NCBI GenBank assembly: GCA_028868375.1
Contig: JAGWUP010000009.1
Location: 32,538 to 96,537, forward strand
From: Elusimicrobiota bacterium
GTDB taxonomy: Bacteria; Elusimicrobiota; Elusimicrobia; UBA1565; UBA9628
DNA: 64,000 bases
Direction: 5' to 3'
A program made the translations under genes and the position numbers. Below, piece after piece: positions 11,897-60,772 of this stretch; position 1 is the stretch's first letter; every line of letters starts with the position of its first letter. The notes under the pieces are model-generated. The model did not search any database and was not told the DNA's origin. It saw only the letters and a program-made list of their open reading frames with translations.

Positions 11897-11909
11897 GGAC
11901 CCCCCTCGC

Positions 11910-12806: not shown

Positions 12807-12836
12807 GTTGCTCGCTAGGCCGCGGCCTTAGAGCCT

Positions 12837-13109
12837 ATCCCATAACTACAAGGCCACTCGGAGGGCCGAGTCCGCGACGATTTCGAGAAGCGAGGAGGGA
12901 GCATAGCGATAGCTATGTGACCGACGAGCGACGAAGAAATCGGCCGGAATCGGCCCTCCCTTCCCTTAAATCAAAAAAGAGGGGTCGAGCGCTTTCGGTC
13001 CCTGGCTGCATTGCTCATCGCTTACATGCCTATCGGCATGCTCGCTCTTCGCGCCTTGCCAGAAACCAAAAGCGCTCGACCAAGTGGCCTTGTAGTTATG
13101 GGATAGGCT
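12837..13109. repeat. 29-bp perfect inverted repeat (AGAGCCTATCCCATAACTACAAGGCCACT) flanking a ~222-bp spacer, immediately 3' of actF
   Basis: Left arm at 12840-12868 and its reverse complement at 13082-13110, read directly from the sequence. An inner small hairpin catgcc-tatc-ggcatg lies near 13026. Confidence 0.7.
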
Positions 13110-13110
13110 C

Positions 13111-14268
13111 TTAGGCGTGGTGGTGGAGGCTTTCGACGAGGTAGGGATCGCGCAGAGCCACCGGGGGAGCGGCGCTGAAGGTTCGGTCGAAGAGCAGGAT
13201 GAAGAGTCCGCCCGCCCCCAAGAATGCCCCCACCTCAAGCCAGCCGAACTGCGGATGAATGGTGACGGAGGGGCCGACCAAAAGGTAGAGATCGAGGCAG
13301 CGGCCGAAGAGCAGCAAAATGCAAACGGAAAATAAGCGGCGGATGCGCTTCTTTTGTCCGGCCGGCAAAAGAAGGGCGAAGGGCAAGGCGAAATTCACGA
13401 TCGGGTTGAGCCAGAAAAGAGGCTTCCAGCCGTTCGCCATGCGCGTGACGTAGTGGGCCGTCTCCTCGGGGAGATTGGAATACCAGATCAGAAGGTACTG
13501 GCAGAACCAAAGGTAGGCCCAGAAACAAGAAAAGGCGAAGAGGTACTTGCCAAGATCGTGGAAGTGGTGGGAGTTGAGCTCCCGATAGAGGCCGCGGCGA
13601 TGCAACAGCAGAAGAAGAAGGACCATCACGGCCAGCCCGGCCATGAACAAGCCGGAGAAAAGGTACCAAGGATAGATCGTGCTGTACCAGTCCGGCTCCA
13701 GGGACATGATCCAGAGAATCGCCGCCGCGGTGAAGGTCAGGGAAAAGGCGACGAGAAAGGCGGCGGAGACGCGCATCGCCCGCTCGCTTAAGTCCGCGCC
13801 GTCCCGCTCGTCCTGCGCCCGGGAAAGGCGGATCAAGGAGCGCGAGAGTCCGTACCAGACGGCGAAGCAGACGGCGGAGATGATGAAGAAGGAGACGGGA
13901 TTGAGAAACGCCGTCTTGGCGCGCAAAACGGGGTCTGCGGCCACCGTGGCGCTGTCGGCCCAAGGATAAAGCTTGCCGACGCCGAAGCATTGCAGGGCCA
14001 TCAACGCGGCGCCGACCGGCAGGTAGGCGCCCATGGCCTCCGGCACGCGGCAGAAGAGCGCCGACCAGCCGGCGCTGGACAGACGCTGGATCGCGGCGAA
14101 GACGAGCCCCCCCAAAGCCACGCAAACGAAGAAAAAGTTCGCCATCAGCAGAGCGCTCCAGGCGCGCCTCGGCTCCAGGAGCAAGCCCGCCGCCAGCACG
14201 GCGGCTGCCGCCGCCGCCAGAATGCCGAGCGTCCTCCTCTGATTTTCGTCCAATAGTCTAGCGGTCAT
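13111..14268 (-). CDS. actF: alternative complex III subunit ActF (NrfD-like integral membrane subunit)
   Basis: About 10 TM helices with NrfD/PsrC-like hydropathy, as the last gene of the act cluster. The ATG at 14268 overlaps the upstream stop (ATGA). Confidence 0.7.
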   Translation of the reverse strand: MTARLLDENQRRTLGILAAAAAAVLAAGLLLEPRRAWSALLMANFFFVCVALGGLVFAAIQRLSSAGWSALFCRVPEAMGAYLPVGAALMALQCFGVGKLYPWADSATVAADPVLRAKTAFLNPVSFFIISAVCFAVWYGLSRSLIRLSRAQDERDGADLSERAMRVSAAFLVAFSLTFTAAAILWIMSLEPDWYSTIYPWYLFSGLFMAGLAVMVLLLLLLHRRGLYRELNSHHFHDLGKYLFAFSCFWAYLWFCQYLLIWYSNLPEETAHYVTRMANGWKPLFWLNPIVNFALPFALLLPAGQKKRIRRLFSVCILLLFGRCLDLYLLVGPSVTIHPQFGWLEVGAFLGAGGLFILLFDRTFSAAPPVALRDPYLVESLHHHA

Positions 14269-16610
14269 GATGAGGGCTTCCCCGTTTCCCATGTCCTGAG
14301 GTATGCCACGATCTCGCGAATCTCGTCGGCCGACAGGGCCCGCACGCCCGGAGCGCCCAAGGCGAAAGGAGGCATCGGCGTGCCCGGACGCCCCATCGCG
14401 ATCGTCGCCAGCAGGAAGTTGTCGTCAGCCGCCTTTAGGAAGCCTGGATTATGCAAAGAGGGTCCGTAGTCGCCAGCTTCCAAGCCGTGCTTGCCCAATC
14501 CCCCCTCGCCGTGGCAGCGGGCGCAGTTCTGCTTGAAAAGGGCGCGGCCGCGCAGCGCCAGGGCCGGGGAGCGGTCGACCTCGCGCCGCTCGACGGGCGG
14601 ATGCCCGGAAAAGCTCATGAGATAGGTCGCCACGCTTTCGATGTCGTCTTCCGACAAATGGACCTTGCCGCTGTAAAAGGACGGCATGGGGGTATGATCG
14701 CGCCCGAGAACGAGGGTCGCCGCGATGAAACCGGCCGAGGCCACCCGCTGGAAGCCGGGCGCCCCCAGAGACGGCCCGCTGCCGCCCTGGGCGTGCTCGC
14801 CATGGCATTTCGCGCAGCCGGCCTTGCTGTGGAAGATCTCGTTGCCGTCGTCGGCGAAGGACCAGGAGAAGGTCGGCTTGAGGATCTCGGCGGGCGGATG
14901 CCTTTGAATTTGGCGCAAGTAGGCGATGACGTTATCGATATCGCCGACGCTCAGGGGATCGCGATCCCGATGCAGGAAGCCCTTCATCTCCGTTCCCCGC
15001 TTGCCGTGGGCGATCGTCTGGAAGAGGAAATCGTCGCTGACTTGGGTGCCGAAGGTGGGATTGCCGATCTGGGCGCCGACGTCGCCGGAGCCTCCGGCCA
15101 TGTGGCACTTCTGGCAGTTCGCCTTAAAGAGCGCCTGGCCAAGCTTCGGATCCCCGGAGATCGTCTTATTGGAGAGCGCGACGGAGGGCTCCGTCTGCCA
15201 GGAGCGGATGTGCGTGATGACGGCCGCAAGCTCCGCGGCGGAGAGCTGGCGCCAAGCGGGCATCGCGGTCTGCGGCCTTCCCTCGGTGATCACGTTATAA
15301 AGGAAGTGGTTGTCGGCCATCGAAAGGAAAGAGGGGCTGTTGAGGCGCGAGCCGATGCCGCCATCCCCATTCTGGCCGTGGCAGCCGGCGCAGCGCATCG
15401 CGAAGACGCGCGCTCCCTGGGCATTGGTGACGCGCGGCAGGAGGCGCTGGACCCGGGACCAGGACGGCGGCCTCGAGCGCCAGCTCTGGATCGCGGCGGA
15501 CAGATCGGCGACATCGGAAGCCTTCAAGCCGTAGGCCGCCGGCATCGCGGTATGGGGGCGTCCCCAAGCGATCGTCTCCCGCAGGAAACGCTTGGAGGCG
15601 ATGGAAAGGAAGGCGGGGCCGTTGAGGGAATTGCCGATGCCGCCCTGGCCGTTGCGGCCATGGCAGCCGGCGCAGCGCTTGGCAAAAAGGGCCTTCCCTT
15701 GAACGGCGTCGCCTCGGGCGGCCACCAGGCTGGCCGCGCTCGGGGCCGGCGTCGCCCAGGAGCGGATGTAGCGGACCAAGCTTTCGATCTGCGTCGGCGT
15801 CAAGGCCCCGCCCCAAGCCGGCATCGCGGTCCCCGCCCGCCCATGGGTTATGGTCTGACGGTAGTAATTATTGTCGGCGACGGCCAAGACGCTGGGCTGA
15901 TGCAGCGTCGGCACGCCATGCTGCGGATGAAGCCCTTCTTGGCCGTGGCAGACGGCGCAATGCTGGGCGAAGAGCTCCTTGCCGTAGCCGGCGGAGACGA
16001 GGGAGTCGCGGCGGGAGTCCTCCAAGGGGCTGCGCGGATAGGCGTGTCTGGCGATCTCCTGGCGCTGCAGGTTGCGCAGGTAGAGGATGATCTTCCAGCG
16101 ATCCTTCTGGGGAATTTGCGAGCCGTGCGCCGGCATCATGTTGAAGCCGTAGGTGATGACGTCGAAGATCGTGCCGTCCTTGAGGGCGTAGACCGATGGG
16201 GTCGCGATCGGAAAGGAAAAGGCCGGAAACAACTTGGCGACCGGACCGTCGCCCAGCCCCTCCTGCCCATGGCAGTGGGAGCAGTAGGCCTGGAAAAGCT
16301 GTTTGCCCTGGATCAGATTCTGGTAGGTCGGCAGCAATGGGTTCTTGAGCTCGCGGCCGGCAAGCTCGCGCCCCGCCGCGCCCGGACCGTAGGGCAGGGG
16401 CATGTAGCCGCGCGGGATGGTGCCGGGAACCGGCGGCTGCTCGGTGCGTCCGCCGGGCAAAACGGAATTTGGCATCTGGGATTTGTAGGCCTTCGAGTAG
16501 ACCATGTCGTTGAAAAGCCGCCAATGCGGCTCCTGCAAATCCCGCCGCACGGCCAGCACCATCGCCACCGCCGCCAGGACCAGGGCCGCCGGAGCCAGGA
16601 AACGCTTCAT
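14265..16610 (-). CDS. heptaheme c-type cytochrome built of seven tandem class-I cytochrome c domains, occupying the ActE position of ACIII
   Basis: Signal peptide, then seven CxxCH motifs: CSHCH, CAVCH, CAGCH, CAGCH, CQKCH, CAKCH and CARCH. Each is preceded by G..LF and followed by GxGG and a Met-ligand region (TAMPAW, TEMKGF, TPMPSF, TPMPPF). Confidence 0.8.
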   Translation of the reverse strand: MKRFLAPAALVLAAVAMVLAVRRDLQEPHWRLFNDMVYSKAYKSQMPNSVLPGGRTEQPPVPGTIPRGYMPLPYGPGAAGRELAGRELKNPLLPTYQNLIQGKQLFQAYCSHCHGQEGLGDGPVAKLFPAFSFPIATPSVYALKDGTIFDVITYGFNMMPAHGSQIPQKDRWKIILYLRNLQRQEIARHAYPRSPLEDSRRDSLVSAGYGKELFAQHCAVCHGQEGLHPQHGVPTLHQPSVLAVADNNYYRQTITHGRAGTAMPAWGGALTPTQIESLVRYIRSWATPAPSAASLVAARGDAVQGKALFAKRCAGCHGRNGQGGIGNSLNGPAFLSIASKRFLRETIAWGRPHTAMPAAYGLKASDVADLSAAIQSWRSRPPSWSRVQRLLPRVTNAQGARVFAMRCAGCHGQNGDGGIGSRLNSPSFLSMADNHFLYNVITEGRPQTAMPAWRQLSAAELAAVITHIRSWQTEPSVALSNKTISGDPKLGQALFKANCQKCHMAGGSGDVGAQIGNPTFGTQVSDDFLFQTIAHGKRGTEMKGFLHRDRDPLSVGDIDNVIAYLRQIQRHPPAEILKPTFSWSFADDGNEIFHSKAGCAKCHGEHAQGGSGPSLGAPGFQRVASAGFIAATLVLGRDHTPMPSFYSGKVHLSEDDIESVATYLMSFSGHPPVERREVDRSPALALRGRALFKQNCARCHGEGGLGKHGLEAGDYGPSLHNPGFLKAADDNFLLATIAMGRPGTPMPPFALGAPGVRALSADEIREIVAYLRTWETGKPSS

Positions 16611-17137
16611 GAGCCGGCTCCCGTCTCCACGACCCTGGACGCCCCCTGCTCCTCGAGGAAGCGCTGCACGACGCCCTCGCCGACCCCATCCGGCCCCTCG
16701 CGAAAGGTCAGCAGGAAGCGATCGTCAAGGGCGCCCAAGCCCTCCATGGCAGGACGGCGGCCGGGATGGAGGCGGCGCATGCGCATGAAGGTGGCGACCG
16801 TCCCCAGGCCGGCGATCAGCACGGTCAGCTCGAAGGCGATCGGGATGAGCGCTGGAGAGGCGTCGTAGGACTTGCCGCCGATGTTCAACGGCCAGTCGAA
16901 GACGCTGACCCAATATTGAAAGGAAAGGGCGGCGGTCAAGCCGATGGCGCCGAAGAGGAGGCAGAAGCGCGGCAAGGGCGAGGGCGCAAGACCCAGGGCC
17001 TCGTCCATGCCGTGGACCGGATAGGGCGTATAAGCGTCATGGACCGGCAGGCCGGCGGCTCGCGCCAGGCGGGCCGCGCGAAGCAGCTTCGTCTCCGATT
17101 CGAAGACGCCGACCACGAAACGATGCGGATGCGTCAT
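16607..17137 (-). CDS. actD: alternative complex III subunit ActD (DUF3341 membrane protein)
   Basis: 176 aa with two TM helices and the ActD-like PYPVHGMDEALG segment. Translationally coupled to both neighbours. Confidence 0.7.
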   Translation of the reverse strand: MTHPHRFVVGVFESETKLLRAARLARAAGLPVHDAYTPYPVHGMDEALGLAPSPLPRFCLLFGAIGLTAALSFQYWVSVFDWPLNIGGKSYDASPALIPIAFELTVLIAGLGTVATFMRMRRLHPGRRPAMEGLGALDDRFLLTFREGPDGVGEGVVQRFLEEQGASRVVETGAGS

Positions 17138-18507
17138 GCCTCCACCCCGGGGGCGTCCTTGGCGTAATGCAGCACGCTCTTGACCTCGCTCATCGCGATG
17201 ACCGGCAGCACGCGGCAGAAGAGGAAGAAGCAGGTGAAGAACAGCCCGAAGCTGCCGATGAGAGTGCCCACCTCGATATAGGTCGGATAGTACATCCGCC
17301 AGCTCGAGGGCAGGAAATCGCGATGCAGGGAGACCGTGATGATGACCCAGCGCTCAAGCCACATGCCGACGTTGATGAGGATCGAGATCACCCAGACCTT
17401 CCAAGGCGTCCTGCGCACGCGCTTGAACCAAAGGGCCTGCGGCGCGAAGACGTTGCAGAACACCATCGTCCAGTAGAAGGGCCAGTAGGGCCCGCGCATC
17501 CGGTTGACCGTCGAGAAGCGCTCGAAGGGATTGACGCTGTACCAGGAGGTGAACAGCTCCGTGGCGTAGGCCAAGCCCACGATCAGCGAGGTCAAGAGGG
17601 TGATCTTGCACATGGCGTCGATGTGCTCGATGGTGATGTAGGCCTCCAGGCGCATCACCTTGCGGGCGATGATCAAGAGGGTCAGGACCATCGCGAAGCC
17701 CGAGAAGATGGCCCCGCAGACGAAATAGGGCGGAAAGATGGTGCTGTGCCAGCCGGGCAAGATCGAGGTCGCGAAGTCGAAGCTGACGATGGTGTGCACC
17801 GAGAAGACCAGCGGGGTCGCCAGGCCGGCCAGCAGGAGGTACATCGACTCGTAGTGAGACCAGGTCCGCTGCGAGCCGTCCCAGCCGAGGCTCAGGCCCC
17901 GATAGAGCGTCTTACGCCAGCCCCGCGGCAGCCGCGCGGCCAGCGTCGCCAAGTCGGGCAGCAGACCGATGTACCAGAAGGTCGCCGAGATCGTGAAGTA
18001 GGTGCTGATGGCGAAGAAATCCCATAGCAGCGGGGAGCGGAAGTTGACCCAGAGAGGACCCCTGGGGTTGGGGTAGGGCACCACCCAATAGGCCAGCCAG
18101 GGACGGCCCATGTGGATCAATGGGAAAAGCGCGGCGCACATGACGGCGAAGAGGGTCATCGCCTCGGCCGAGCGGTTGATGGAGTTGCGCCAGCGCTGGC
18201 GGAACAGGAAAAGAATGGCGGAGATGAGCGTGCCGGCATGGCCGATACCGACCCAGAATACGAAGTTGGTGATGTCGAAGGACCAGCCGATCGTCTTGTT
18301 GAGGCCCCAGGTGCCGATGCCGGTCCACACCTGGTCGATGACCATGATCAGGCCCGTGAGCAGGGCCGTGGACGACAGGCCGAAACCCAGCCACCACAGG
18401 CGCGTCGGGGTGCGGTCCAGTGGATCGCAGACGTCGCGCGTGACGTCCGCGCAGGTCTTGTCGCCCTCGACCAGCGGCTTTCTCAACAGAGACAGGGTTG
18501 AGGTCAT
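17134..18507 (-). CDS. actC: alternative complex III subunit ActC (NrfD/PsrC-family quinol-interacting membrane subunit)
   Basis: MTSTLSLLRKPLVEG start (TGATG overlap with actB), then about 10 TM helices with polysulfide-reductase NrfD-like conservation (WGLNKTIGWSFDITNFVFWVGIGHAGT). Confidence 0.85.
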   Translation of the reverse strand: MTSTLSLLRKPLVEGDKTCADVTRDVCDPLDRTPTRLWWLGFGLSSTALLTGLIMVIDQVWTGIGTWGLNKTIGWSFDITNFVFWVGIGHAGTLISAILFLFRQRWRNSINRSAEAMTLFAVMCAALFPLIHMGRPWLAYWVVPYPNPRGPLWVNFRSPLLWDFFAISTYFTISATFWYIGLLPDLATLAARLPRGWRKTLYRGLSLGWDGSQRTWSHYESMYLLLAGLATPLVFSVHTIVSFDFATSILPGWHSTIFPPYFVCGAIFSGFAMVLTLLIIARKVMRLEAYITIEHIDAMCKITLLTSLIVGLAYATELFTSWYSVNPFERFSTVNRMRGPYWPFYWTMVFCNVFAPQALWFKRVRRTPWKVWVISILINVGMWLERWVIITVSLHRDFLPSSWRMYYPTYIEVGTLIGSFGLFFTCFFLFCRVLPVIAMSEVKSVLHYAKDAPGVEA

Positions 18508-21419: not shown

Positions 21420-21439
21420 GATCTTTTCGCCTGTCTCGC

Positions 21440-22330
21440 TCACCAGTGGCATGCCGCGCAGTCGGTCGGCCCCCCCACGCGTTTCCAATGCGTCGGCGCC
21501 TGTCCGGGACGCAGGCGATGGCATTGGATGCACCAGCCCATCGACAGACTAGCCGCCTGCCTCACCCGATCCATTTTCTGGATCGGTCCGTGGCACTCCT
21601 GGCACTGGATGCCGTTGGCGATGTGGACACGGTGGCTGAAATGGGCGAAGTCCGGAAGATGGTGCACCCGCACCCACGGGATCGTCGCCGCCTCGGGAGT
21701 GGCGCGGGCATCCCAAAAATGGAGCAGCTTCGCGATCTCGGCGGACGGCTCCTTGGATCCCGCCATCCCCTTGACCACGTTATGGCAGTTCATGCAGACG
21801 CTGACCGCCGGCACCCCCGCCACGTCGCTGCTGCGAGCCCCATAGTGGCAATAGAAACAGGAAATCTTGAGCTTCCCCGCATGGATGGCGTGCGAAAAGG
21901 CGATCGGCTGCACCGGCTCGTAGCCTTGCTGATTGCCGAGCAGATGGAAATAGCGGCGCCCGCCCAAGGACAGGTAGGCGCAGAGTATCGCCAGCAAGGC
22001 CAGCACCAATGGAGCGCCTCGGACGCCGAACTGCCAGGCCCAAATCATCCCCGCCAGCAGCACCAAGGAAAAGGCGATGCCGGGCCAATAAATCGAGAAG
22101 CCCTCGTCGGGCGTCTTCACCTTGTCGGCCAGCGGCTCTTGCGGCAAGAGCTGCTGATCCAGGGAAGCCGCCGGGTCGCGATGACCCGGGACGACCGCAT
22201 GGTAGCGCAAGGTCTGCGCGCTCTTTCGTTTCGGGGCGTGACCCGTCCCCGCGACCGCTGGCCCCGCGGCCGCCAAGACGAGGAGCCAGGCCCACTTCAT
22301 TCGCCGAGTTCTCGCATGTCGCCTACCCAT
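21440..22330 (-). CDS. actA: alternative complex III subunit ActA, pentaheme c-type cytochrome
   Basis: Five CxxCH motifs (CFYCH, CMNCH, CQECH, CIQCH, CAACH) and an N-terminal signal/anchor. The start may be Met11 at 22300, given the position of the sigma-54 promoter. Confidence 0.85.
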   Translation of the reverse strand: MGRRHARTRRMKWAWLLVLAAAGPAVAGTGHAPKRKSAQTLRYHAVVPGHRDPAASLDQQLLPQEPLADKVKTPDEGFSIYWPGIAFSLVLLAGMIWAWQFGVRGAPLVLALLAILCAYLSLGGRRYFHLLGNQQGYEPVQPIAFSHAIHAGKLKISCFYCHYGARSSDVAGVPAVSVCMNCHNVVKGMAGSKEPSAEIAKLLHFWDARATPEAATIPWVRVHHLPDFAHFSHRVHIANGIQCQECHGPIQKMDRVRQAASLSMGWCIQCHRLRPGQAPTHWKRVGGPTDCAACHW

Positions 22331-22348
22331 TGATGCGTGGGGGTATCA

Positions 22349-22364
22349 GGCAACACTCTTGCCA
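22349..22364 (-). promoter_or_regulatory. sigma-54 (-24/-12) promoter TGGCAagagtgTTGCC upstream of actA
   Basis: Exact GG-N10-GC spacing with TGGCA and TTGC elements on the minus strand, 20-50 nt upstream of the candidate actA start codons. Confidence 0.6.
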
Positions 22365-22414
22365 TCGAACGCGGCAAATAAACGCATTTATTCTGAAATT
22401 ATTCTAAAAGCGCA

Positions 22415-22447
22415 GGAATAGATTCCAAGGGATTTAAAATAAATCCC
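22415..22447. promoter_or_regulatory. two adjacent palindromes (GGAATAGATTCC and GGGATTTAAAATAAATCCC) in an AT-rich region 50-85 bp upstream of the actA sigma-54 promoter; candidate activator (UAS) sites
   Basis: Perfect inverted repeats read from the sequence, in the position expected for bacterial enhancer-binding protein sites. Confidence 0.4.
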
Positions 22448-22478
22448 GGTCCGATACCGGCAGTCGCGAGGCCCGATC

Positions 22479-23024
22479 TCACTTGCTGGATCCCTTCGCC
22501 TCCGGTCCCTTCGTTTTCTCTTTGGCCTCCGGTTTCTTTGCTTCCTCCTTGAGCTTCTGCTTGATCAGGTCCGCCTTGCGAACCGATGAATCGTAGATCA
22601 AGAAGGCTGTGATCTTGTCTTCGTCCTTGTCGCTGATCCCGGAATGCCTCTTATGCCGCATCTTGCTCACGTAAGCCTTCCATTCCTCCGGCAAGGCGTA
22701 ATGCGAGTTGATCGGACGCGCCAAGGTATGGCAGCGCGAGCATTTTTGGGCGAAGACCTTGTAATTCTTCTGCTGCTCGGGCGGATACTTGGAGACGTCG
22801 ATGGTGTCCGGTCCGTTGTCGAACGGACAGACGCTGTTGCCGTCCTCGTCGAGCTTGCACTCGCTGCCCGGAATCGGCGTCAGCTTCTGCGCCGCCTGCC
22901 CGGAGTCGCCGTCGGCCCAAGCCGTCCCGCGGCCAACCGCCAGCCAGCCGCCGGCAAGCAAGACCGCGGCGACTCCGACGCTCTTTACAGTCCGCCAACC
23001 GCTAGAAGTCATCCTTCCCTCCAT
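22479..23024 (-). CDS. small secreted monoheme cytochrome c-like protein with Lys-rich C-terminal tail
   Basis: Signal peptide, a single CSRCH motif and a tail KEEAKKPEAKEKTKGPEAKGSSK. Lies 26 nt downstream of the cyc2-like gene. Confidence 0.55.
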   Translation of the reverse strand: MEGRMTSSGWRTVKSVGVAAVLLAGGWLAVGRGTAWADGDSGQAAQKLTPIPGSECKLDEDGNSVCPFDNGPDTIDVSKYPPEQQKNYKVFAQKCSRCHTLARPINSHYALPEEWKAYVSKMRHKRHSGISDKDEDKITAFLIYDSSVRKADLIKQKLKEEAKKPEAKEKTKGPEAKGSSK

Positions 23025-23049
23025 GCATCCCGCTGGCCGCGACGCCGGC

Positions 23050-24417
23050 CTAGAAGCCCACCTCCACCTGCAGGCTGGCCCGATCGCCGTGCACCGCCAG
23101 AGTGCCCGCGGTTGCGGTCAGCGTCCCGCCCTGGTAACCCCGCGTCGTGTCCACGGAGTACTCGGCGAAAGCCTTCACGTTGGGCTGGAAATAATGCGCC
23201 AGGTGGAAGGTGATGTAATTGAACTGCTGCGTGCCGTTGAAGGTCGTGTACCAGTTCTCGCGAATCAACGGCATCAGGAACGGATATGCCTCGTTGCCCC
23301 TCTTGTAGGCATAGGCCAACTCGGCGTAGGCCGCGCGATCCGTCGCAGTGGCCCCGTCGAAGGAGGGATCGCCCTCATGAGTGTAGGCGAAGGCTCCGCG
23401 CGCGGCGAAGTTGCCGATCTCCCAAAGGGCGTCGAAGCCGGTCCAGACGAACTGCTGCTTGGACAAGACTCCCGCCGTGCCCCCAGTGAAGCCGCTGGCG
23501 TCGCGAGGCCCCTCGTGGCCGTAGGACCCGAAGGCTCCGACCATCAGCCCGGAGTTGTTGTCGAAGGCCAGCCGCAGGTCTCCGTTGGTCGGCGCGTTGG
23601 CCTGCCGGCCCAGGTCGTCATCCTTGCTGGCGCCCGCCGCATAATAAAGGAACGCGGCGTTCGGCAGCGGAACCTGTCCGTAGACGTACATCGTCTGCTG
23701 CGTGCCGGTCAGGGAATTGCCGGCCACCGAGCTCTGATCCGGCTGCAGCAGGTCCGTCGCCCGGTTTGCGATCGTCGGGCTCTCCGCCGCGGACAGCGTC
23801 TGGTAGGGATCGTCGACGAAGAAACCGCGGCGCGCCAGCACCACGTTGAGCTGGTCATAGGGATGATAGCCGAAGCGCAGGTCGCCCAAACCCGGAGCGA
23901 AGCCGCCCGCTGCGTTGGCGTCCATCTCGCCGAAGTAGGAGATTTGCCTGGCCGCGTCTCCCCCCGCCACGAAGAAATCCACGTCGTTGAGCGGCTGGGA
24001 CTTGAAGCCGCCCGTGTTGGGACTCGCCGTGCCGCCCATCTGGCCTCCGGCGTTCGCGATGTTGCCGCGCCCGTTGTCGAAAGGCCGAGAGCGCACGATC
24101 ACCGCCCAGGGGAATATCTTCTCGATGCTCATCTGCTTATCGGAGCTCTTGAGCACGCCGACGTCGGAGTCCTTATCCCGGACGTAGCCGTTCATCTTGA
24201 ACTGCCGGCCGTAGGCGTTGAGGATCGGGAAGGCGTAATGGCATTGCGAGCAAGAGACTCCGTACTTGCGCGCGAAGGACGGAAGGGCCTGGACCGACTC
24301 GACGGCGCTGCGGCGCAGCGGGCAGAGGTGCTCGCACGTCTGATGCAGGGGCGGCAGCAGCCAAGCGACGGCCAATAGGACCGCCGCCAGAGCCGGGATC
24401 ATGAATTTCTTGGACAT
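23050..24417 (-). CDS. Cyc2-like fused monoheme cytochrome c / outer-membrane beta-barrel porin (candidate Fe(II) oxidase / extracellular electron transfer protein)
   Basis: GAGGAG RBS, signal peptide MSKKFMIPALAAVLLAVAWLL and the N-terminal motif LPSFARKYGVSCSQCHYAFPILNAYGRQFK carrying one CxxCH. About 400 aa of Gly/Tyr/Asp-rich amphipathic beta-strand sequence end in a terminal Phe (QVEVGF). Confidence 0.6.
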   Translation of the reverse strand: MSKKFMIPALAAVLLAVAWLLPPLHQTCEHLCPLRRSAVESVQALPSFARKYGVSCSQCHYAFPILNAYGRQFKMNGYVRDKDSDVGVLKSSDKQMSIEKIFPWAVIVRSRPFDNGRGNIANAGGQMGGTASPNTGGFKSQPLNDVDFFVAGGDAARQISYFGEMDANAAGGFAPGLGDLRFGYHPYDQLNVVLARRGFFVDDPYQTLSAAESPTIANRATDLLQPDQSSVAGNSLTGTQQTMYVYGQVPLPNAAFLYYAAGASKDDDLGRQANAPTNGDLRLAFDNNSGLMVGAFGSYGHEGPRDASGFTGGTAGVLSKQQFVWTGFDALWEIGNFAARGAFAYTHEGDPSFDGATATDRAAYAELAYAYKRGNEAYPFLMPLIRENWYTTFNGTQQFNYITFHLAHYFQPNVKAFAEYSVDTTRGYQGGTLTATAGTLAVHGDRASLQVEVGF

Positions 24418-24456
24418 AGTCTCCTCACTCGATGGATGATGTTGTTCTGCGCACAC

Positions 24457-24472
24457 AGCAACATTTTTGCCA
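24457..24472 (-). promoter_or_regulatory. sigma-54 (-24/-12) promoter TGGCAaaaatgTTGCT upstream of the cyc2-like gene
   Basis: Consensus spacing, located about 40 nt upstream of the ATG and directly downstream of the NtrC-family regulator gene. GATTCC...GGAATTTC repeats lie 40-75 bp further upstream (24509-24534). Confidence 0.6.
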
Positions 24473-24552
24473 AAGAACGCGTCAAAATATCATATTTCCC
24501 GACTGGATGATTCCAATCCAAAGAGAGGAATTTCTAAAAAGCTTGAAAAAGC

Positions 24553-25926
24553 TCAGCGGTAGAGCCGCGGCTGGAGGCCGTATTTCTTAAGGTACCAATA
24601 CAAGTTGCTCAGCGGCAGGGCCGCGGCCTGGGCCGCCGCCTTGGCGTTGCCGTGGTGTTCCTTAAGGAGAGCGTCGAAGTATTCCCGCTCGAAGGCCTGG
24701 ATGCCCTGCCTCTTTCGCTCCACGAACCCCCCCCGCGCCTCGAGCGGCTCCGTCGGAGCCGAGACGAGGTTCTCGGGAAGGTCCTCGGGCCGCAGGAGGC
24801 TGCGGCCGCACAGCAGGATGGAGCGCTTGAGGACGTTCTGCAGCTCGCGGATGTTTCCGGGCCAGGAGTAGCTCGTCAAAATCTCCAGCGCCGCGGGGTC
24901 GACGCGCAAAACGTTCGAGTCCAGCTCCTTGGAGTAGCGCGGCAGGAAATGCTCCAGCAGCAGCCGTATGTCGTCCGGGCGCTCGCGCAGCGGAGGCACG
25001 CGGATGGCGACCACGTTCAAGCGATAGAAGAGATCGGAGCGGAAGCGCCCCGCCGCGACGTCCGCCTTCAAGTCGCGATTGGTGGCGGCGACGACGCGCA
25101 CGTCGACGCTTTGGACCTCGTTGCCTCCGACCCGGCGAAATTGCCGCTCCTGGAGCGCGCGCAGGAGCTTGGCCTGCAGCCCTCCCGGCAATTCCCCCAC
25201 CTCGTCCATGAAGAAAGTGCCGTGGTCGGCGAACTCCAGGAGCCCCGGAGCGGCCTCTCCCGCGTCGGTGTAGGCCCCGCGCTCGTGGCCGAAGAACTCG
25301 TTTTCAAGCAGGTTCTCCGGGATCGCGCCGCAGTCCACCGGCACGAAGCGCCCACGCCTGCCGGAGCGCGCGTGCAGGCGCCGCGCGATGAGCTCCTTGC
25401 CGGTTCCCGACTCGCCCAGGATCAGCACGTCCGCCGCCGTCGCCGCCACCTTGTCGACCAGCGCCAAGACCTCCAGAATGCTGGGGCTGGCGCCCACGAT
25501 GCCGTCGGTAGCGTATTCCCGGGTGAGGTGCCTGGTGAGCAGGCGATGCTCCCCCTTGAGCCGCCTCTGCTCCAAGGCGCGCGCCACCTTCAGGCGCAGG
25601 TCGTCGGGGTGGAAGGGCTTGATCAAGTAGTCCAGCGCCCCGTCGCGCAGCGCCTGCACGGCGGATTCGACGCCCGGGAAAGCCGTGATCAGGATGAAGG
25701 GAAGCTCGGCGTCCGTCTTCTTGGCGGCGCGCAAAAGCTCCAGGCCGCTTAAACCCGGCATGTTGATGTCGGCCACCACCGCGTCGAACGTTCCCCGGGT
25801 CAAGCGCTCCAGGGCGCGCGGCGCATCCGCCTCCAGCACGACGTTGACGGCCTCCCGCGAGAGCGCGGCCTTGCAGGTCGAGAGCATGTCCCTCTCGTCG
25901 TCGACGACGAGGACGCTCTGGGTCAC
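24553..25926 (-). CDS. sigma-54-dependent response regulator (NtrC/AtoC family: REC + AAA+ + Fis HTH)
   Basis: REC domain (VLVVDDERDM, phospho-Asp), AAA+ Walker A GESGTGKE, the GAFTGA-like ENEFFGHERGAYTDA sigma-54 contact loop, and a C-terminal HTH. Confidence 0.9.
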   Translation of the reverse strand: MTQSVLVVDDERDMLSTCKAALSREAVNVVLEADAPRALERLTRGTFDAVVADINMPGLSGLELLRAAKKTDAELPFILITAFPGVESAVQALRDGALDYLIKPFHPDDLRLKVARALEQRRLKGEHRLLTRHLTREYATDGIVGASPSILEVLALVDKVAATAADVLILGESGTGKELIARRLHARSGRRGRFVPVDCGAIPENLLENEFFGHERGAYTDAGEAAPGLLEFADHGTFFMDEVGELPGGLQAKLLRALQERQFRRVGGNEVQSVDVRVVAATNRDLKADVAAGRFRSDLFYRLNVVAIRVPPLRERPDDIRLLLEHFLPRYSKELDSNVLRVDPAALEILTSYSWPGNIRELQNVLKRSILLCGRSLLRPEDLPENLVSAPTEPLEARGGFVERKRQGIQAFEREYFDALLKEHHGNAKAAAQAAALPLSNLYWYLKKYGLQPRLYR

Positions 25927-27287
25927 GGCGCCGGAGCCCCCGGAGCGGGAAAGCGGATGGTGAAGCTCGCCCCCCGGCCGACGCCCCCGTCCACCAGGAT
26001 TTCCCCGCCGTGCGCCTTGACGAAGGACAGGGAGATCGGCAGGCCCAGGCCGGTCCCGTGGTCGGCCGTCTTGGTCGAGAAAAGGGGCTCGAAGATCTTG
26101 CGCAGATGCTCCGGCGCGATGCCTTCCCCGGTGTCCGAGATCACCGTCTCGATCCAGCCGCCCGCCTCGCGCGTGGCGGCGCCGAGCCGGCCCCCGCGAG
26201 GCATGGCCTCGATCGCGTTATGGATCACGTTCAGGTAGGCATGAAAGAGGTCGTCGTAGCTGGCCCGCACCGGCGCGACGGCGCGCAAATCGCGGCGGAC
26301 CTCTATGCCGCGGGCGCGCGCCTGCGCCGCGCTCGTGGCCAAGGCGTCGCAGAGCACCTCGTTGACGTCCACCTCGCCGCGCGGCTCGGAGGAAGGCTTG
26401 AGCAGGCGCAGCAGGCGCTGCACGACCCGGCCCACGCGATCGCTCTGGCGGTCGACGATCTCCAGGGACTCCTCAAGGAACTCCCCGGAGCGAAACTCCG
26501 GGGAGCCGGAGCGCAGCAGCTTCATGCGCGCGGAGATGATCCCGATGGGGTTATTGACCTCGTGCGCGATGAAGCCGACGATCTGCCCCAAAGCGCCCAG
26601 CCGCTCGGCCTTGAGCAGCCGCTCCTGGCTGTCGCGCAGCCTGCCCATGATCGTCGTGATGAAGTAGGCCGTGCCGGCCAATAGCCCCAGGAAGGTCGCC
26701 GTCATGCCCACGACCTCCCTCAGCCGCTCCGGGCTGGCGAACGCCAGCAGGCGGTAGTGAGGCCAGAGGCCGGCGTACTCGCCGAAGCTCAGGCAGCAGA
26801 AGAGGCCCCCCGCCATGGCGGTCACCAGCCAGGCGTCGGAGACCGACAGGAGAATCCCCGCCATCAAAACGTGGAAGACGTAGAGAACGTACAGGGGGTT
26901 CTCCAGCCCTCCTGAAAAATGGAGCAGAAAGGTCAGCAAGACCAGGTCGAAGGCCATCTGCGCCAGCAGGAATGGGCGCTGCCGGCGCAGCCTGGAGCGC
27001 AGGGACAGGAAAGCGAAATTCCCGAGCAGGATGGCCGCCACGCATGTCCAGAGCGGCGCGGCCAAGGAGGGATCGACCCAGCCCAGGACGTGGGCGGCTA
27101 AAAAGACCGTCACGCCGGCCGCGGTCGCCGCCACGCCGCGCATGCGGATAAGCCAATCGGCCGGGCCGCGGCCGCTGCCGGCCGCCTCGGCGCCGATGAT
27201 CAGGGGAAGCTCCGGCGCCAGCCGCCGTCCCATCACCGCCGCGCCGACGGCCACCAGGCAGAGCAGGACGCCTAGGCCTTCGAGCAT
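25923..27287 (-). CDS. membrane sensor histidine kinase
   Basis: About 6 N-terminal TM helices, H-box FIAHEVNNPIG, and an HATPase_c with N, G1 (DTGEGI) and G2 (GTGLGL) boxes. Overlaps the regulator gene start. Confidence 0.85.
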   Translation of the reverse strand: MLEGLGVLLCLVAVGAAVMGRRLAPELPLIIGAEAAGSGRGPADWLIRMRGVAATAAGVTVFLAAHVLGWVDPSLAAPLWTCVAAILLGNFAFLSLRSRLRRQRPFLLAQMAFDLVLLTFLLHFSGGLENPLYVLYVFHVLMAGILLSVSDAWLVTAMAGGLFCCLSFGEYAGLWPHYRLLAFASPERLREVVGMTATFLGLLAGTAYFITTIMGRLRDSQERLLKAERLGALGQIVGFIAHEVNNPIGIISARMKLLRSGSPEFRSGEFLEESLEIVDRQSDRVGRVVQRLLRLLKPSSEPRGEVDVNEVLCDALATSAAQARARGIEVRRDLRAVAPVRASYDDLFHAYLNVIHNAIEAMPRGGRLGAATREAGGWIETVISDTGEGIAPEHLRKIFEPLFSTKTADHGTGLGLPISLSFVKAHGGEILVDGGVGRGASFTIRFPAPGAPAP

Positions 27288-47301: not shown

Positions 47302-47328
47302 CTTATTTTAATCTGGCTAATTTGATTA

Positions 47329-47344
47329 ATGCAACAAAATAGCC
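47329..47344 (-). promoter_or_regulatory. sigma-54 (-24/-12) promoter TGGCTattttgTTGCA upstream of yceI-porin operon
   Basis: Perfect GG-N10-GC spacing in an AT-rich intergenic region, about 28 nt upstream of the yceI ATG. Confidence 0.55.
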
Positions 47345-47380
47345 AAAACAATAAGACGACTTACTTTCGCTAGCCTTGAA

Positions 47381-49564: not shown

Positions 49565-49565
49565 C

Positions 49566-49943: not shown

Positions 49944-49976
49944 TGCTTCTCCTTTAAGTCTAGCAAGTCTCGAATC

Positions 49977-51020: not shown

Positions 51021-51069
51021 GTTCGGATTGTTCTTCGATTAAGCAACCAAGCAACGCTACGGCCAAATC

Positions 51070-54883: not shown

Positions 54884-54979
54884 CCCGCAGGGACCACGAT
54901 CGCATTCATGCCAGCTTCGCGCCATTGAACGGCGCGAAGCAACACAATGGCCCGGCAGATTCGTTGCTTTTAACCGATC

Positions 54980-60695: not shown

Positions 60696-60726
60696 TTCGG
60701 ATCAAACGGCATAGCGAAAACGATTT

Positions 60727-60742
60727 TGGCCGTTTTATTGCA
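60727..60742 (+). promoter_or_regulatory. sigma-54 (-24/-12) promoter TGGCCgttttaTTGCA upstream of the rpoN-like gene
   Basis: Perfect spacing, about 30 nt upstream of the ATG at 60773, in the AT-rich divergent intergenic region. Confidence 0.55.
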
Positions 60743-60772
60743 ATACCATCATGGAACATTCCGGCCAATGAC

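What the first reader, a model, noticed from the sequence alone, without database searches (positions are those of the whole stretch)
13111..27287. A cyc2-like cytochrome-porin, a small cytochrome c and a full ACIII operon form one same-strand respiratory island next to a sigma-54 two-component system
A Cyc2-type fused monoheme cytochrome/outer-membrane barrel (with the N-terminal LPSFARKYGVSCSQCH motif) is followed 26 nt later by a small secreted cytochrome c and then by actA-B-C-D, a heptaheme gene and actF. Sigma-54 promoters precede both cyc2 and actA, and the NtrC-type regulator and kinase genes sit immediately upstream. This architecture would carry electrons from outside the cell through periplasmic cytochromes c to a quinone-reactive complex. 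It is the logic proposed for neutrophilic Fe(II) oxidation and for extracellular electron uptake. The physical linkage of cyc2 with ACIII under a shared regulator would be a notable, possibly undescribed, arrangement.
Basis: partly seen in the sequence, partly recalled or inferred. Interest (0 to 1): 0.85.

Follow-up and report, generated by a model that had tools for sequence, protein, structure and literature searches.

The report
Cyc2 iron-oxidase gene joined to ACIII
An uncultured Elusimicrobia genome places a Cyc2-type outer-membrane cytochrome-porin (the candidate iron-oxidising enzyme of iron bacteria), a small partner cytochrome and a complete alternative complex III side by side behind matching sigma-54 promoter motifs; relatives repeat the linkage, which is gene-neighbourhood support for a long-suspected but unproven Cyc2-ACIII connection.

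Summary
On the minus strand, 27287-13111 encodes a multi-TM histidine kinase, an NtrC-type sigma-54 activator, a 455-aa Cyc2-family cytochrome-porin, a secreted 181-aa monoheme cytochrome c, and actABCDEF.

- **Cyc2 membership.** The protein meets every published sequence criterion for Cyc2. It models as a 16-strand barrel whose best solved match is OprP, as reported for Cyc2 of Mariprofundus.
- **The "heptaheme gene".** This is ActE itself, extended by six extra cytochrome c domains.
- **Promoters.** Near-identical -24/-12 motifs precede cyc2 and actA. The strict motif occurs 4 times in the window against 0.44 expected.
- **Linkage.** Among 16 informative loci of this Elusimicrobia Cyc2 clade, 9 have ACIII within 10 kb, in at least four arrangements. 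None of 73 loci outside the clade does.
- **Prior literature.** A Cyc2-like gene in Elusimicrobiota and ACIII in Elusimicrobia were each reported separately. A Cyc2-to-ACIII model exists for proteobacterial iron oxidisers. I found no report of physical linkage.
- **Open points.** Fe(II) oxidation itself and the direction of electron flow through ACIII remain inferred.

The window also holds an MtrAB-like decaheme/26-strand-barrel pair next to a bc complex, a second sigma-54 activator system and a short rpoN-like gene. Verdict: a new variant of a known kind, of moderate interest.

The parts
25923..27287 (-). Sensor histidine kinase with a multi-pass membrane N-terminus and no PAS or periplasmic domain. 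Overlaps the activator gene by 4 nt.
   Evidence: HisKA + HATPase_c, with a weak PilS-like 6TM hit. Sub-threshold full-length similarity to ActS/PrrB/RegB redox kinases (100 bits against a cutoff of 350).
24553..25926 (-). NtrC-type sigma-54 enhancer-binding response regulator (EBP1).
   Evidence: Response_reg, Sigma54_activat (E=1.4e-63) and AAA_lid_14. AtoC/NtrC models score below their cutoffs. The GAFTGA loop reads GAYTDA.
24457..24472 (-). Sigma-54-type -24/-12 element TGGCAAAAATGTTGCT, 40 nt upstream of the cyc2 ATG.
23050..24417 (-). Cyc2-family fused monoheme cytochrome / 16-strand outer-membrane porin, 455 aa.
22479..23024 (-). Secreted monoheme cytochrome c (181 aa) with a Lys-rich tail. 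It is the conserved partner gene of cyc2 in this clade.
   Evidence: One CXXCH at residue 95 and a signal peptide ending AWA. Weak Cytochrome_CBB3 and SorB hits. Homologues follow cyc2 directly in L003, L005, L006, L009-L013, L087 and L089.
22436..22460 (-). Terminator-like hairpin CCGGTATCGGACCGG followed by GATTTATTTT, after the small cytochrome gene.
22349..22364 (-). Sigma-54-type -24/-12 element TGGCAAGAGTGTTGCC upstream of actA.
   Evidence: It shares extended similarity with the cyc2 promoter.
21440..22330 (-). actA, pentaheme cytochrome c subunit. An alternative start lies at 22300.
   Evidence: Five CXXCH motifs. Cytochrome_C7 and QrcA hits.
18507..21419 (-). actB, fused molybdopterin-like/FeS subunit with a Tat motif (RRDFL).
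   Evidence: 6f0k_B E=1.1e-183; 6btm_B E=4.2e-178.
17134..18507 (-). actC, NrfD-type quinone-interacting membrane subunit.
   Evidence: NrfD, E=1.3e-21. Its start overlaps the actB stop.
16607..17137 (-). actD.
   Evidence: PF11821 ActD, E=3.5e-47, matched over its full length.
14265..16610 (-). actE extended to seven monoheme class-I cytochrome c domains (781 aa), with an N-terminal membrane anchor.
   Evidence: Residues 27-184 match ActE of solved ACIII (6btm_E E=3.1e-26; 6f0k_E E=9.6e-24). The remaining domains resemble CcoP and c552. Seven CXXCH motifs. The ~780-aa family is common in Elusimicrobia and also occurs in Planctomycetes.
13111..14268 (-). actF, the second NrfD-like membrane subunit.
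   Evidence: 6btm_F E=1.6e-57; 6f0k_F E=6.8e-52.
12825..13116 (-). A ~290-nt, strongly self-complementary element starting at the actF stop codon. Its role is unknown; it could be a terminator or 3' stabiliser, or a mobile-element remnant.
   Evidence: 37-nt inverted repeat, 95% complementary, with nested repeats. RNA fold -185.5 kcal/mol, z=-13.8. No Rfam match and no other copy found.
12784..12798 (-). Third strict sigma-54-type motif, TGGCAGGCGCGTTGC, about 30 nt before an ATG at 12751-12749. That ATG opens an unannotated ORF (to 11910) followed by a tandem Usp gene (11989-11021). Possibly the same regulon; uncertain.
   Evidence: Usp, E=7.8e-42.

Best explanation
This is a two-operon respiratory module of an uncultured Elusimicrobia bacterium.

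- **Proposed pathway.** A Cyc2-family outer-membrane cytochrome-porin takes electrons from a soluble extracellular donor, most likely Fe2+. It hands them to a co-transcribed, secreted monoheme cytochrome c. That cytochrome feeds the periplasmic c-type cytochrome pool.
- **Link to quinone.** An adjacent alternative complex III, whose ActE subunit carries seven haems instead of one, connects the same cytochrome pool to the quinone pool.
- **Regulation.** Both operons appear to be switched on together, through near-identical sigma-54 promoters, by the neighbouring membrane-embedded kinase and NtrC-type activator.
- **Shown here.** The identity of every part, the Cyc2 family features, the barrel fold, completeness of ACIII, the promoter motifs, and recurrent cyc2-ACIII linkage in relatives.
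- **Inferred.** That the donor is Fe(II), that the small cytochrome is the carrier, and that EBP1 drives both promoters.
- **Unresolved.** Whether ACIII runs in reverse (cytochrome c to quinone, uphill, as proposed for autotrophic iron oxidisers) or forward (quinol to cytochrome c, sharing the oxidase branch with Cyc2). I lean slightly towards a shared cytochrome c / oxidase branch, with reversal possible.
For: **Cyc2 membership.**
- The motif, its spacing, PxL, the length and the single haem all fit the criteria of Keffer 2021.
- A motif scan of 185,579 species genomes gave 590 tblastn-confirmed relatives. They include Chlorobium, Acidiferrobacteraceae, Nitrospirae and Acidobacteriota. Many of these carry a dihaem cytochrome right after cyc2, as cyc1 does in known systems.
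- A 59%-identical homologue lies in a record titled 'Elusimicrobia bacterium isolate MAG 13' (L008). Grettenberger & Hamilton report a Cyc2-like gene in their Elusimicrobiota MAG 13, which was abundant where Fe(II) was 403 uM.

**ACIII.** Matches to solved ACIII subunits B, E and F, plus PF11821 ActD.

**Linkage.**
- ACIII lies within 10 kb of cyc2 in the window, L001, L005, L006, L011, L087, L088, L089 and L090. That is 9 of 16 informative clade loci.
- Cyc2 identity to the window across these loci is 40-65%.
- There are four arrangements: cyc2-cyt-actA..F; actA..F-cyc2; convergent; and ACIII-SCO1-cox-cyc2.
- None of 73 loci outside the clade (L014-L086) has ACIII within 10 kb.
- L006 adds a haem-copper oxidase (COX1-4 plus SCO1) between ACIII and cyc2.

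**Regulation.** The strict -24/-12 motif is enriched and sits before both operons, with shared flanks.

**Physiological precedent.** ACIII rises by log2FC 6.84 after an Fe(II) pulse in Sideroxydans ES-1 (PMC8788666).

**Context.** A second outer-membrane electron conduit (DmsE-family decahaem plus an MtrB-like barrel) and a bc complex lie in the same window.
Against: - No experiment ties this clade's Cyc2 to iron. Cyc2 homologues occur in many organisms not known to oxidise iron (PMC7029218, PMC8406198).
- The clade has a conserved 20-residue insert with an invariant Cys before the Cyc2 motif, absent from the distant homologues. This could alter haem ligation or substrate.
- ACIII is not essential for Fe(II) oxidation in Zetaproteobacteria (PMC6443915).
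- Seven clade loci lack nearby ACIII, including MAG 13 itself (L008).
- The seven-haem ActE is common in Elusimicrobia and Planctomycetes irrespective of cyc2.
- MAG 13 is listed without carbon fixation, so a need for reverse electron flow is not evident.
- Sigma-54 motifs precede cyc2 in only 2 of the 14 other clade loci scanned.
- EBP1 has a non-canonical GAYTDA loop. No shared activator-binding site was identified.
Confidence: 0.6

Rival explanations
1. Reverse-ACIII iron lithotrophy. Electrons from Fe(II) pass from Cyc2 to the small cytochrome, then to the seven-haem ActE, and are driven uphill by proton-motive force through ACIII to quinone and on to NAD(P)H. ACIII would be dedicated to the iron pathway.
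For: The same logic is proposed for Mariprofundus, Ferriphaselus and Sideroxydans, and ACIII is induced by Fe(II) in ES-1. The organism also has a separate bc-type complex (49564-47381), so ACIII could be specialised, as petI and petII are in Acidithiobacillus (my own knowledge). The promoters are shared and the linkage recurs.
Against: No carbon-fixation genes lie in the window, and the related MAG 13 is scored 'No' for carbon fixation. L006 links ACIII and cyc2 through a haem-copper oxidase, which is the forward-chain arrangement. ActB here is fused, unlike the split ActB1/B2 of the iron-oxidiser ACIII clade. Reversal of ACIII has never been demonstrated biochemically (my own knowledge).
Confidence: 0.3
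2. Outward electron transfer. Quinol is oxidised by ACIII and electrons leave through the ActE haem chain, the small cytochrome and Cyc2 to an external acceptor such as soluble Fe(III), Mn or humics.
For: Forward quinol oxidation is the only ACIII activity characterised in the work cited by Kato 2015. The window also carries an MtrAB-like conduit whose family works in either direction. Both a Crp/Fnr regulator and a cytochrome bd subunit suggest life at low or variable O2.
Against: All characterised Cyc2 proteins are oxidases of Fe2+, and Cyc2 of PV-1 sits at +208 mV. A single buried haem in a narrow pore suits soluble Fe2+ uptake. L006 couples cyc2 to an O2 reductase operon.
Confidence: 0.1
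3. The proximity has no specific functional meaning. Respiratory genes simply cluster in these genomes, and the Cyc2-like protein serves an unrelated role, for example another redox substrate or a porin with a sensory haem.
For: Respiratory genes are generally clumped here: bc complex, bd oxidase, decahaem conduit and hemA all lie within 64 kb. Seven clade loci have no ACIII nearby. The clade-specific N-terminal insert hints at divergence.
Against: Linkage is kept through at least four different rearrangements at 40-65% protein identity. In L088 cyc2 lies 53 nt after actF, and in L090 177 nt after it. The window's two promoters are near-identical. One ACIII locus in a genome of about 3.4 Mb (size taken from MAG 13) gives roughly a 0.6% chance of proximity per independent gene.
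Confidence: 0.15

Closest known systems
Cyc2 fused cytochrome-porins (Cyc2 of Mariprofundus ferrooxydans PV-1, Cyc2 of Acidithiobacillus ferrooxidans, Cyt572 of Leptospirillum)
   Same: A single N-terminal CXXCH. The family-specific AxPxFAR[Q/K][T/Y] and PxL motifs at the published spacing. A length of about 450 aa. A 16-strand OprO/P-like barrel. A periplasmic cytochrome c gene directly downstream.
   Different: A clade-specific insert of about 20 residues (W-LL-PP...H...H-x-C-P-V-R-P-D-G) lies between the signal sequence and the Cyc2 motif, with an invariant extra Cys. The partner is a novel 171-193-aa monohaem cytochrome rather than dihaem Cyc1. There is no Pfam or NCBIfam model hit. The cluster (1, 2 or 3) was not assigned.
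Cyc2-like gene reported in Elusimicrobiota MAG 13 from acid mine drainage (Grettenberger & Hamilton 2021, PMC8357290)
   Same: Same phylum and a similar GC content (about 67%). L008 carries the record title 'Elusimicrobia bacterium isolate MAG 13' and encodes a 59%-identical homologue.
   Different: In L008 no ACIII lies within 10 kb of cyc2, and the small cytochrome is 6.5 kb away on the other strand. The paper does not discuss gene context or ACIII.
[quoted passage not shown]
   Same: Subunits ActA (pentahaem), fused ActB, ActC, ActD, ActE and ActF in the canonical order, with strong sequence matches.
   Different: ActE carries six additional cytochrome c domains, seven haems in all. No cytochrome oxidase genes are attached in this window, unlike in L006.
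Proposed Cyc2 -> Cyc1 -> bc1/ACIII 'uphill' pathway of Zetaproteobacteria and Gallionellaceae (Barco 2015; Kato 2015, PMC4643136; Zhou 2022, PMC8788666)
   Same: The same three functional tiers: an outer-membrane Cyc2, a periplasmic cytochrome c, and ACIII at the inner membrane. In ES-1, ACIII is co-induced with Fe(II).
   Different: In those organisms I found no report of cyc2 adjoining the act genes. ActB there is split into B1 and B2. Here the genes are contiguous, share a promoter type, and sit in a phylum with no cultured iron oxidiser.
rus operon of Acidithiobacillus ferrooxidans (cyc2-cyc1-orf-coxBACD-rus; from my own knowledge)
   Same: cyc2 is genetically fused to the respiratory complex that receives its electrons. 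L006 (ACIII-SCO1-cox-cyc2-cyt) is the nearest analogue.
   Different: No rusticyanin. The partner complex in the window is ACIII rather than an aa3 oxidase.

Membership tests
Cyc2 fused cytochrome-porin (criteria of Keffer et al. 2021 / FeGenie) | N-terminal signal peptide | tested here: inconclusive
   MSKK followed by a hydrophobic stretch (residues 5-21), modelled as helix 3-28. No SignalP was available. The cleavage site is unclear because a conserved 20-residue insert precedes the Cyc2 motif.
Cyc2 fused cytochrome-porin (criteria of Keffer et al. 2021 / FeGenie) | Exactly one CXXCH haem-binding motif near the N-terminus | tested here: met
   C56-S-Q-C-H60 is the only CXXCH.
Cyc2 fused cytochrome-porin (criteria of Keffer et al. 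2021 / FeGenie) | AxPxFAR[Q/K][T/Y] motif upstream of CXXCH, with FAR followed by five residues | tested here: met
   A44-L-P-S-F-A-R-K-Y52, then G-V-S, then C56. P46, R50 and Y52 are invariant in all 42 clade sequences, and A44, F48, A49 and K51 are nearly so. Criterion quoted.
Cyc2 fused cytochrome-porin (criteria of Keffer et al. 2021 / FeGenie) | PxL motif four residues after CXXCH | tested here: met
   H60-Y-A-F-P64-I-L66. P64 is invariant in all 50 aligned sequences.
Cyc2 fused cytochrome-porin (criteria of Keffer et al. 2021 / FeGenie) | Length of at least 365 aa | tested here: met
   455 aa.
Cyc2 fused cytochrome-porin (criteria of Keffer et al. 2021 / FeGenie) | 16-strand beta-barrel with OprO/OprP-like fold | tested here: met
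   [not shown]
Cyc2 fused cytochrome-porin (criteria of Keffer et al. 2021 / FeGenie) | Score above cutoff on a FeGenie Cyc2 cluster HMM, and placement in cluster 1, 2 or 3 | not testable with these tools
   The FeGenie HMMs and the reference tree are not available here. Pfam and NCBIfam hold no Cyc2 model that hits. The supplement search for cluster placement of MAG 13 found nothing.
Cyc2 fused cytochrome-porin (criteria of Keffer et al. 2021 / FeGenie) | Haem incorporation, outer-membrane location and Fe(II) oxidase activity | not testable with these tools
   Needs experiments.
Alternative complex III (ACIII) | ActB: fused molybdopterin-like and 4Fe-4S subunit with a Tat signal | tested here: met
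   6f0k_B E=1.1e-183; 6btm_B E=4.2e-178. RRDFL is present.
Alternative complex III (ACIII) | ActA pentahaem cytochrome | tested here: met
   Five CXXCH motifs. Cytochrome_C7 and QrcA similarity.
Alternative complex III (ACIII) | ActC and ActF, NrfD-type membrane subunits | tested here: met
   ActC: NrfD, E=1.3e-21. ActF: 6btm_F, E=1.6e-57.
Alternative complex III (ACIII) | ActD (PF11821), which separates ACIII from Qrc | tested here: met
   E=3.5e-47, full-length match.
Alternative complex III (ACIII) | ActE monohaem cytochrome c | tested here: met
   Residues 27-184 match 6btm_E (E=3.1e-26) and 6f0k_E. The subunit departs from the canonical form by carrying six extra haem domains.
Alternative complex III (ACIII) | Quinol:cytochrome c oxidoreductase activity, and its direction in vivo | not testable with these tools
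   Needs biochemistry.
Sigma-54-dependent, two-component-controlled regulon | -24 GG / -12 GC promoter at the correct spacing upstream of the operons | tested here: met
   TGGCA-N6-TTGC lies before cyc2 and before actA. There are 4 hits against 0.44 expected.
Sigma-54-dependent, two-component-controlled regulon | Activator with an AAA+ sigma-54 interaction domain and a GAFTGA loop | tested here: inconclusive
   The Sigma54_activat domain scores E=1.4e-63, but the loop is GAYTDA rather than GAFTGA.
Sigma-54-dependent, two-component-controlled regulon | Sigma-54 encoded by the genome | tested here: inconclusive
   The window holds only a short (362 aa) rpoN-like protein, with the DNA-binding domain and an RpoN-box-like SRRTV (60773-61861). 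A canonical rpoN, if present, lies outside the window.
Sigma-54-dependent, two-component-controlled regulon | Activator binding sites upstream, and activator-dependent transcription | tested here: inconclusive
   No shared inverted repeat was found between the two upstream regions. Only short shared words turned up (TTGGAATC, TTTTAGAA). Transcription itself is not testable here.

The most novel reading that the evidence does not exclude
In this Elusimicrobia lineage, Cyc2, a dedicated monohaem shuttle and an ACIII with a seven-haem ActE 'wire' form one co-regulated electron-uptake machine. ACIII would work as a cytochrome c:quinone oxidoreductase. The same genome would pair its second outer-membrane conduit (MtoAB-like) with a bc complex. 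Two parallel iron or electron-uptake routes would then each be hard-wired to a different quinone-reactive complex. This would be the first gene-neighbourhood evidence that Cyc2 and ACIII are direct functional partners, and would mark an uncultured phylum as iron-oxidising or electrotrophic.
Probability: 0.3. Interest if true: 0.75.

Novelty: new variant of a known kind. Interest (0 to 1): 0.55.

Why it matters
- **An open question.** The place of ACIII in neutrophilic iron oxidation has been debated since 2011. [quoted passage not shown] Evidence so far is co-occurrence plus one transcriptome (PMC8788666).
- **What this adds.** Conserved physical linkage of cyc2 with ACIII, kept through several rearrangements in a distant phylum, is independent evidence that the two work together.
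- **A testable system.** It offers a compact set of genes: a 455-aa Cyc2, a 181-aa cytochrome and an ActE with six extra haem domains. Electron hand-over and ACIII directionality could be tested on these.
- **Ecology.** It supports the suggestion that free-living Elusimicrobia take part in iron cycling in groundwater and mine-drainage settings.
- **Annotation.** A Cyc2 clade of at least 77 sequence clusters is labelled only 'hypothetical protein' in current databases.

Tried and rejected
- **Family and structure searches on the Cyc2-like protein.** Pfam, NCBIfam and PDB sequence searches gave no hits. Membership therefore had to be judged from published motifs, the model and the fold search.
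- **AlphaFold-database fold search.** It was unavailable, so annotated Cyc2 models could not be matched.
- **Cluster placement of MAG 13's Cyc2.** A search of the supplement of PMC8357290 found nothing usable.
- **Loose sigma-54 consensus.** With 2 mismatches it is not enriched (22 against 22.2). Only the strict core is enriched.
- **Conservation of the sigma-54 promoter before cyc2 orthologues.** It was found only in L003 and L089 among the 14 other clade loci scanned. Sigma-54 control is therefore not a family trait.
- **Shared activator-binding site.** A search between the cyc2 and actA upstream regions gave only 8-9-nt words.
- **Rfam.** No family reached its threshold in the whole window.
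- **The structured element after actF.** It has no second copy in the window, in the fetched loci or in metagenome contigs. The repeated mobile-element idea is therefore unsupported.
- **"Not really Cyc2, just a porin with a chance CXXCH".** I considered this and rejected it, because the full motif and its spacing are conserved across 50 sequences.
- **"The heptahaem is a separate carrier gene".** Rejected, because its first domain is ActE.

Full report
**Origin and layout**

The window has about 67% G+C. Its Cyc2-like protein is 100% identical to a hypothetical protein of an Elusimicrobia metagenome-assembled genome, KGO96_08735, on a 125-kb contig.

On the minus strand, 27287-13111 carries these genes in order:
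- a histidine kinase, 27287-25923;
- an NtrC-type activator, 25926-24553;
- the Cyc2-like gene, 24417-23050;
- a 181-aa cytochrome c, 23024-22479, 25 nt after cyc2;
- after a 148-nt spacer, actA (22330-21440), actB (21419-18507), actC (18507-17134), actD (17137-16607), a 781-aa heptahaem gene (16610-14265) and actF (14268-13111).

From actB to actF the genes overlap by 1-4 nt. They therefore form a single translationally coupled operon.

**Is the 455-aa protein a Cyc2?**

Pfam, NCBIfam and PDB sequence searches return nothing. I therefore tested the published definition.

Keffer et al. 2021 (PMC8406198) define the family by six features:
- a signal peptide;
- one CXXCH;
- the family-unique motif AxPxFAR[Q/K][T/Y] upstream of the haem site;
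- PxL four residues downstream;
- a length of at least 365 aa;
- a 16-strand barrel structurally like OprO/OprP.

The window protein reads A44-L-P-S-F-A-R-K-Y52-G-V-S-C56-S-Q-C-H60-Y-A-F-P64-I-L66. It has a single CXXCH and is 455 aa long. These positions are invariant or nearly so in 42 clade members and in 8 distant homologues.

A motif-based scan of one genome per species found 590 tblastn-confirmed relatives. They occur in Chlorobium, Acidiferrobacteraceae, Nitrospirae, Acidobacteriota, Ignavibacteria and others. In many Acidobacteriota loci a dihaem cytochrome follows cyc2, as cyc1 does in known systems.

One hit, L008, has the record title 'Elusimicrobia bacterium isolate MAG 13' and is 59% identical. 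Grettenberger & Hamilton 2021 (PMC8357290) report a Cyc2-like cytochrome in their Elusimicrobiota MAG 13. That MAG has 67% GC and was abundant where Fe(II) was 403 uM and O2 78 uM.

Membership in the Cyc2 family is therefore well supported. Cluster assignment and enzymatic activity could not be tested.

One difference stands out. The clade has a conserved insert (W19, P22-P23, H, H, C32-P33, R35, then usually P-D-G) between the signal sequence and the Cyc2 motif. It contains an invariant extra cysteine. The model is unconfident there, with pLDDT below 50 for residues 31-45.

**ACIII**

- ActB matches the solved ACIII B subunits at E=1e-183 (6f0k_B) and E=4e-178 (6btm_B).
- ActF matches 6btm_F at E=1.6e-57.
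- ActD is a full-length PF11821 match, and ActC is NrfD-type.
- ActA has five CXXCH motifs.

The heptahaem gene is not an extra carrier. Its residues 27-184 are ActE (6btm_E E=3e-26; 6f0k_E E=1e-23). Six further class-I cytochrome c domains of the CcoP/c552 type follow.

About 75 clusters of such ~780-aa ActE proteins exist, mostly in Elusimicrobia and some in Planctomycetes. Forms of about 900 aa occur in Binatia, Hydrogenedentes and Planctomycetota. The extended ActE is thus a lineage trait of this ACIII type, not something specific to cyc2.

**Regulation**

The kinase has a multi-pass membrane N-terminus and no PAS or periplasmic domain. It has only sub-threshold similarity to RegB/PrrB-type redox kinases. 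The activator has receiver and sigma-54-interaction domains, but its GAFTGA loop reads GAYTDA.

TGGCAAAAATGTTGCT lies 40 nt before the cyc2 ATG. TGGCAAGAGTGTTGCC lies 18 nt before the first actA ATG. The strict core TGGCA-N6-TTGC occurs four times in 64 kb against 0.44 expected, and 0 of 100 shuffles reached four. The two promoters align beyond the core, as CGCGTTC-N2/3-TGGCAA-N3-TGTTGC.

A hairpin with a T-run follows the small cytochrome gene. I therefore read two transcription units with one promoter type.

A third strict match (12798-12784) precedes an unannotated ORF and a tandem Usp gene just after actF.

The sigma-54 link is not a family trait. Among the 14 other clade loci scanned, only L003 and L089 show such a motif before cyc2. 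I found no convincing shared activator-binding site.

**Gene-neighbourhood test of the cyc2-ACIII link**

I examined 16 informative loci of the Elusimicrobia Cyc2 clade (35-100% identity to the window protein).

| Arrangement | Loci |
|---|---|
| cyc2-cytochrome-actA..F | window, L005, L011, L087, L089 |
| actA..F-cyc2 | L088 (53-nt gap), L090 (177-nt gap) |
| Convergent, 2.3 kb apart | L001 |
| ACIII (monohaem ActE)-SCO1-COX2/1/3/4-cyc2-cytochrome | L006 |
| No ACIII within reach | L003, L004, L008, L009, L010, L012, L091 |

ACIII thus lies within 10 kb in nine of the sixteen. None of the 73 loci outside the clade (L014-L086) has ACIII within 10 kb.

Equal contig lengths in the two protein searches suggest further linked pairs: P0013/P0100, P0030/P0107 and P0057/P0098. 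I did not verify these.

The small cytochrome is the most constant neighbour of cyc2. It is 171-193 aa long, with the motif IDVSxYPxEQQxNYxVFAxKCSxCHTLARPIN, a cleavable signal peptide and a charged tail.

Retention of linkage through several rearrangements, at 40-65% protein identity, argues for selection on co-inheritance or co-expression rather than chance.

**Literature**

- The Cyc2 -> periplasmic cytochrome -> bc1/ACIII 'uphill' scheme is an established hypothesis for Zeta- and Betaproteobacterial iron oxidisers (PMC4643136; PMC6443915; PMC10734462).
- ACIII is strongly induced by Fe(II) in Sideroxydans ES-1 (PMC8788666).
- ACIII is absent from some iron-oxidising Zetaproteobacteria.
- In 'Ca. 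Tenderia' cyc2 is given its own locus tag and the paper reports no adjacency to the ACIII genes.
- Meheust et al. (bioRxiv 10.1101/765248) report ACIII in Elusimicrobia lineage IV without mentioning iron or Cyc2.
- Searches combining Cyc2, ACIII, gene cluster, adjacent and Elusimicrobia found no description of physical cyc2-ACIII linkage. The library is limited to open-access papers, so this is not proof of absence.

**Mechanism**

My best-supported reading has four steps:
1. Cyc2 oxidises soluble Fe2+ at the outer membrane.
2. The co-transcribed monohaem cytochrome carries the electron across the periplasm.
3. The cytochrome c pool is connected to quinone by the co-regulated ACIII, whose seven-haem ActE offers an extended docking and relay surface.
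4. A terminal oxidase takes the downhill share. A cytochrome bd subunit lies at 34217-32802, and aa3/cbb3 oxidases are presumably encoded elsewhere, as in MAG 13.

Direction through ACIII is unresolved.
- *For reversal:* the analogy with autotrophic iron oxidisers, and the presence of a separate bc complex in the window.
- *Against a need for reversal:* MAG 13 lacks carbon fixation, L006 has an oxidase-linked arrangement, and ActB is of the fused, non-iron-oxidiser type.
- *Outward electron transfer* is a minor alternative, as is functionally meaningless clustering.

**Wider context found on the way**

Directly downstream lie hemA, a cytochrome c, Rieske, cytochrome b and a cytochrome b/c fusion (51020-47381). 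A TGGCC-type -24/-12 motif precedes them.

A second activator, a PAS kinase and a short rpoN-like gene lie at 57.9-61.9 kb. The homologue of the rpoN-like gene sits right next to cyc2 in L003, and near it in L091.

**Verdict**

- The parts are known families.
- The new points are the recurrent cyc2-ACIII linkage, the dedicated small cytochrome, the clade-specific Cyc2 N-terminal insert, and the pairing with an ACIII that has a seven-haem ActE.
- Interest is moderate. It sharpens an open question in iron-oxidation bioenergetics and makes it testable, but does not overturn anything.

Noticed in passing
[not shown]
   Followed up: yes
window 47381-51065 (-): hemA, a cytochrome c, Rieske, cytochrome b(N) and a cytochrome b(C)/dihaem c fusion (a bc-type complex) lie directly downstream of the MtrAB-like pair. 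A TGGCC-type -24/-12 motif (51065-51051) sits 30 nt before the hemA ATG. So each outer-membrane conduit in this window sits beside a different quinone-reactive complex.
   Followed up: partly
window 57898-61885: A second NtrC-type activator (59262-57898, with a GSFTGA loop and HTH_8), a PAS histidine kinase (60695-59244) and a short 362-aa rpoN-like protein (60773-61861). The last has only the sigma-54 DNA-binding domain and an RpoN-box-like SRRTV. TGGCC-N6-TTGC motifs lie just before and just after it. Its 60%-identical homologue lies immediately upstream of cyc2 in L003, and about 9 kb from cyc2 in L091.
   Followed up: partly
window 12825-13116: A ~290-nt element beginning at the actF stop codon. 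It has a 37-nt inverted repeat (95% complementary) enclosing nested repeats. The predicted RNA fold is -185.5 kcal/mol (z=-13.8). There is no Rfam match and no other copy in the window, the fetched loci or metagenome contigs.
   Followed up: partly
window 23050-24417 (-), protein residues 19-38: A clade-specific insert between the signal sequence and the Cyc2 motif. W19, P23, C32 and P33 are invariant apart from one gapped sequence (41 of 42); P22 and R35 are nearly so, and there are two frequent His. It is absent from distant Cyc2 homologues. The extra Cys could be a haem ligand, a lipid-attachment site or a metal site.
   Followed up: partly
window 11021-12798 (-): A third strict sigma-54-type motif (12798-12784) lies about 30 nt before an ATG. 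That ATG opens an ORF with no family hit (to 11910), followed by a tandem universal stress protein gene (11989-11021). Its upstream region shares AGGCCGCGGCC and GAGCAACTTG with the region upstream of the cyc2 promoter.
   Followed up: partly
window 45287-47345 (-): A YceI-like gene (47301-46672) and a 462-aa phosphate-porin-like gene (46675-45287, with no CXXCH checked) lie behind a sigma-54-like motif, TGGCTATTTTGTTGCA (47345-47330). The same YceI-porin pair (66% identical porin) lies about 5 kb from cyc2 in L003.
   Followed up: partly
L003, L005, L089 (about 1.4 kb next to cyc2): A 466-480-aa ankyrin-repeat protein is encoded immediately beside cyc2 in three related loci. No homologue was detected in the window.
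   Followed up: partly
window 27347-29921 (-): A cluster-9-type metal ABC importer lies directly upstream of the kinase on the same strand. It comprises an ABC-3 permease (28684-27347) and a ZnuA-like binding protein (29921-28923). Its relation to the respiratory island is unknown.
   Followed up: no
window 32802-34217 (-), 54074-55078 (-) and 55606-56667 (-): Cytochrome bd oxidase subunit I; a Crp/Fnr-family regulator just upstream of the decahaem gene; and a radical SAM/SPASM protein related to the haem b synthase AhbD (TIGR04053, 427 bits). Together these fit a low-oxygen, haem-intensive lifestyle.
   Followed up: no
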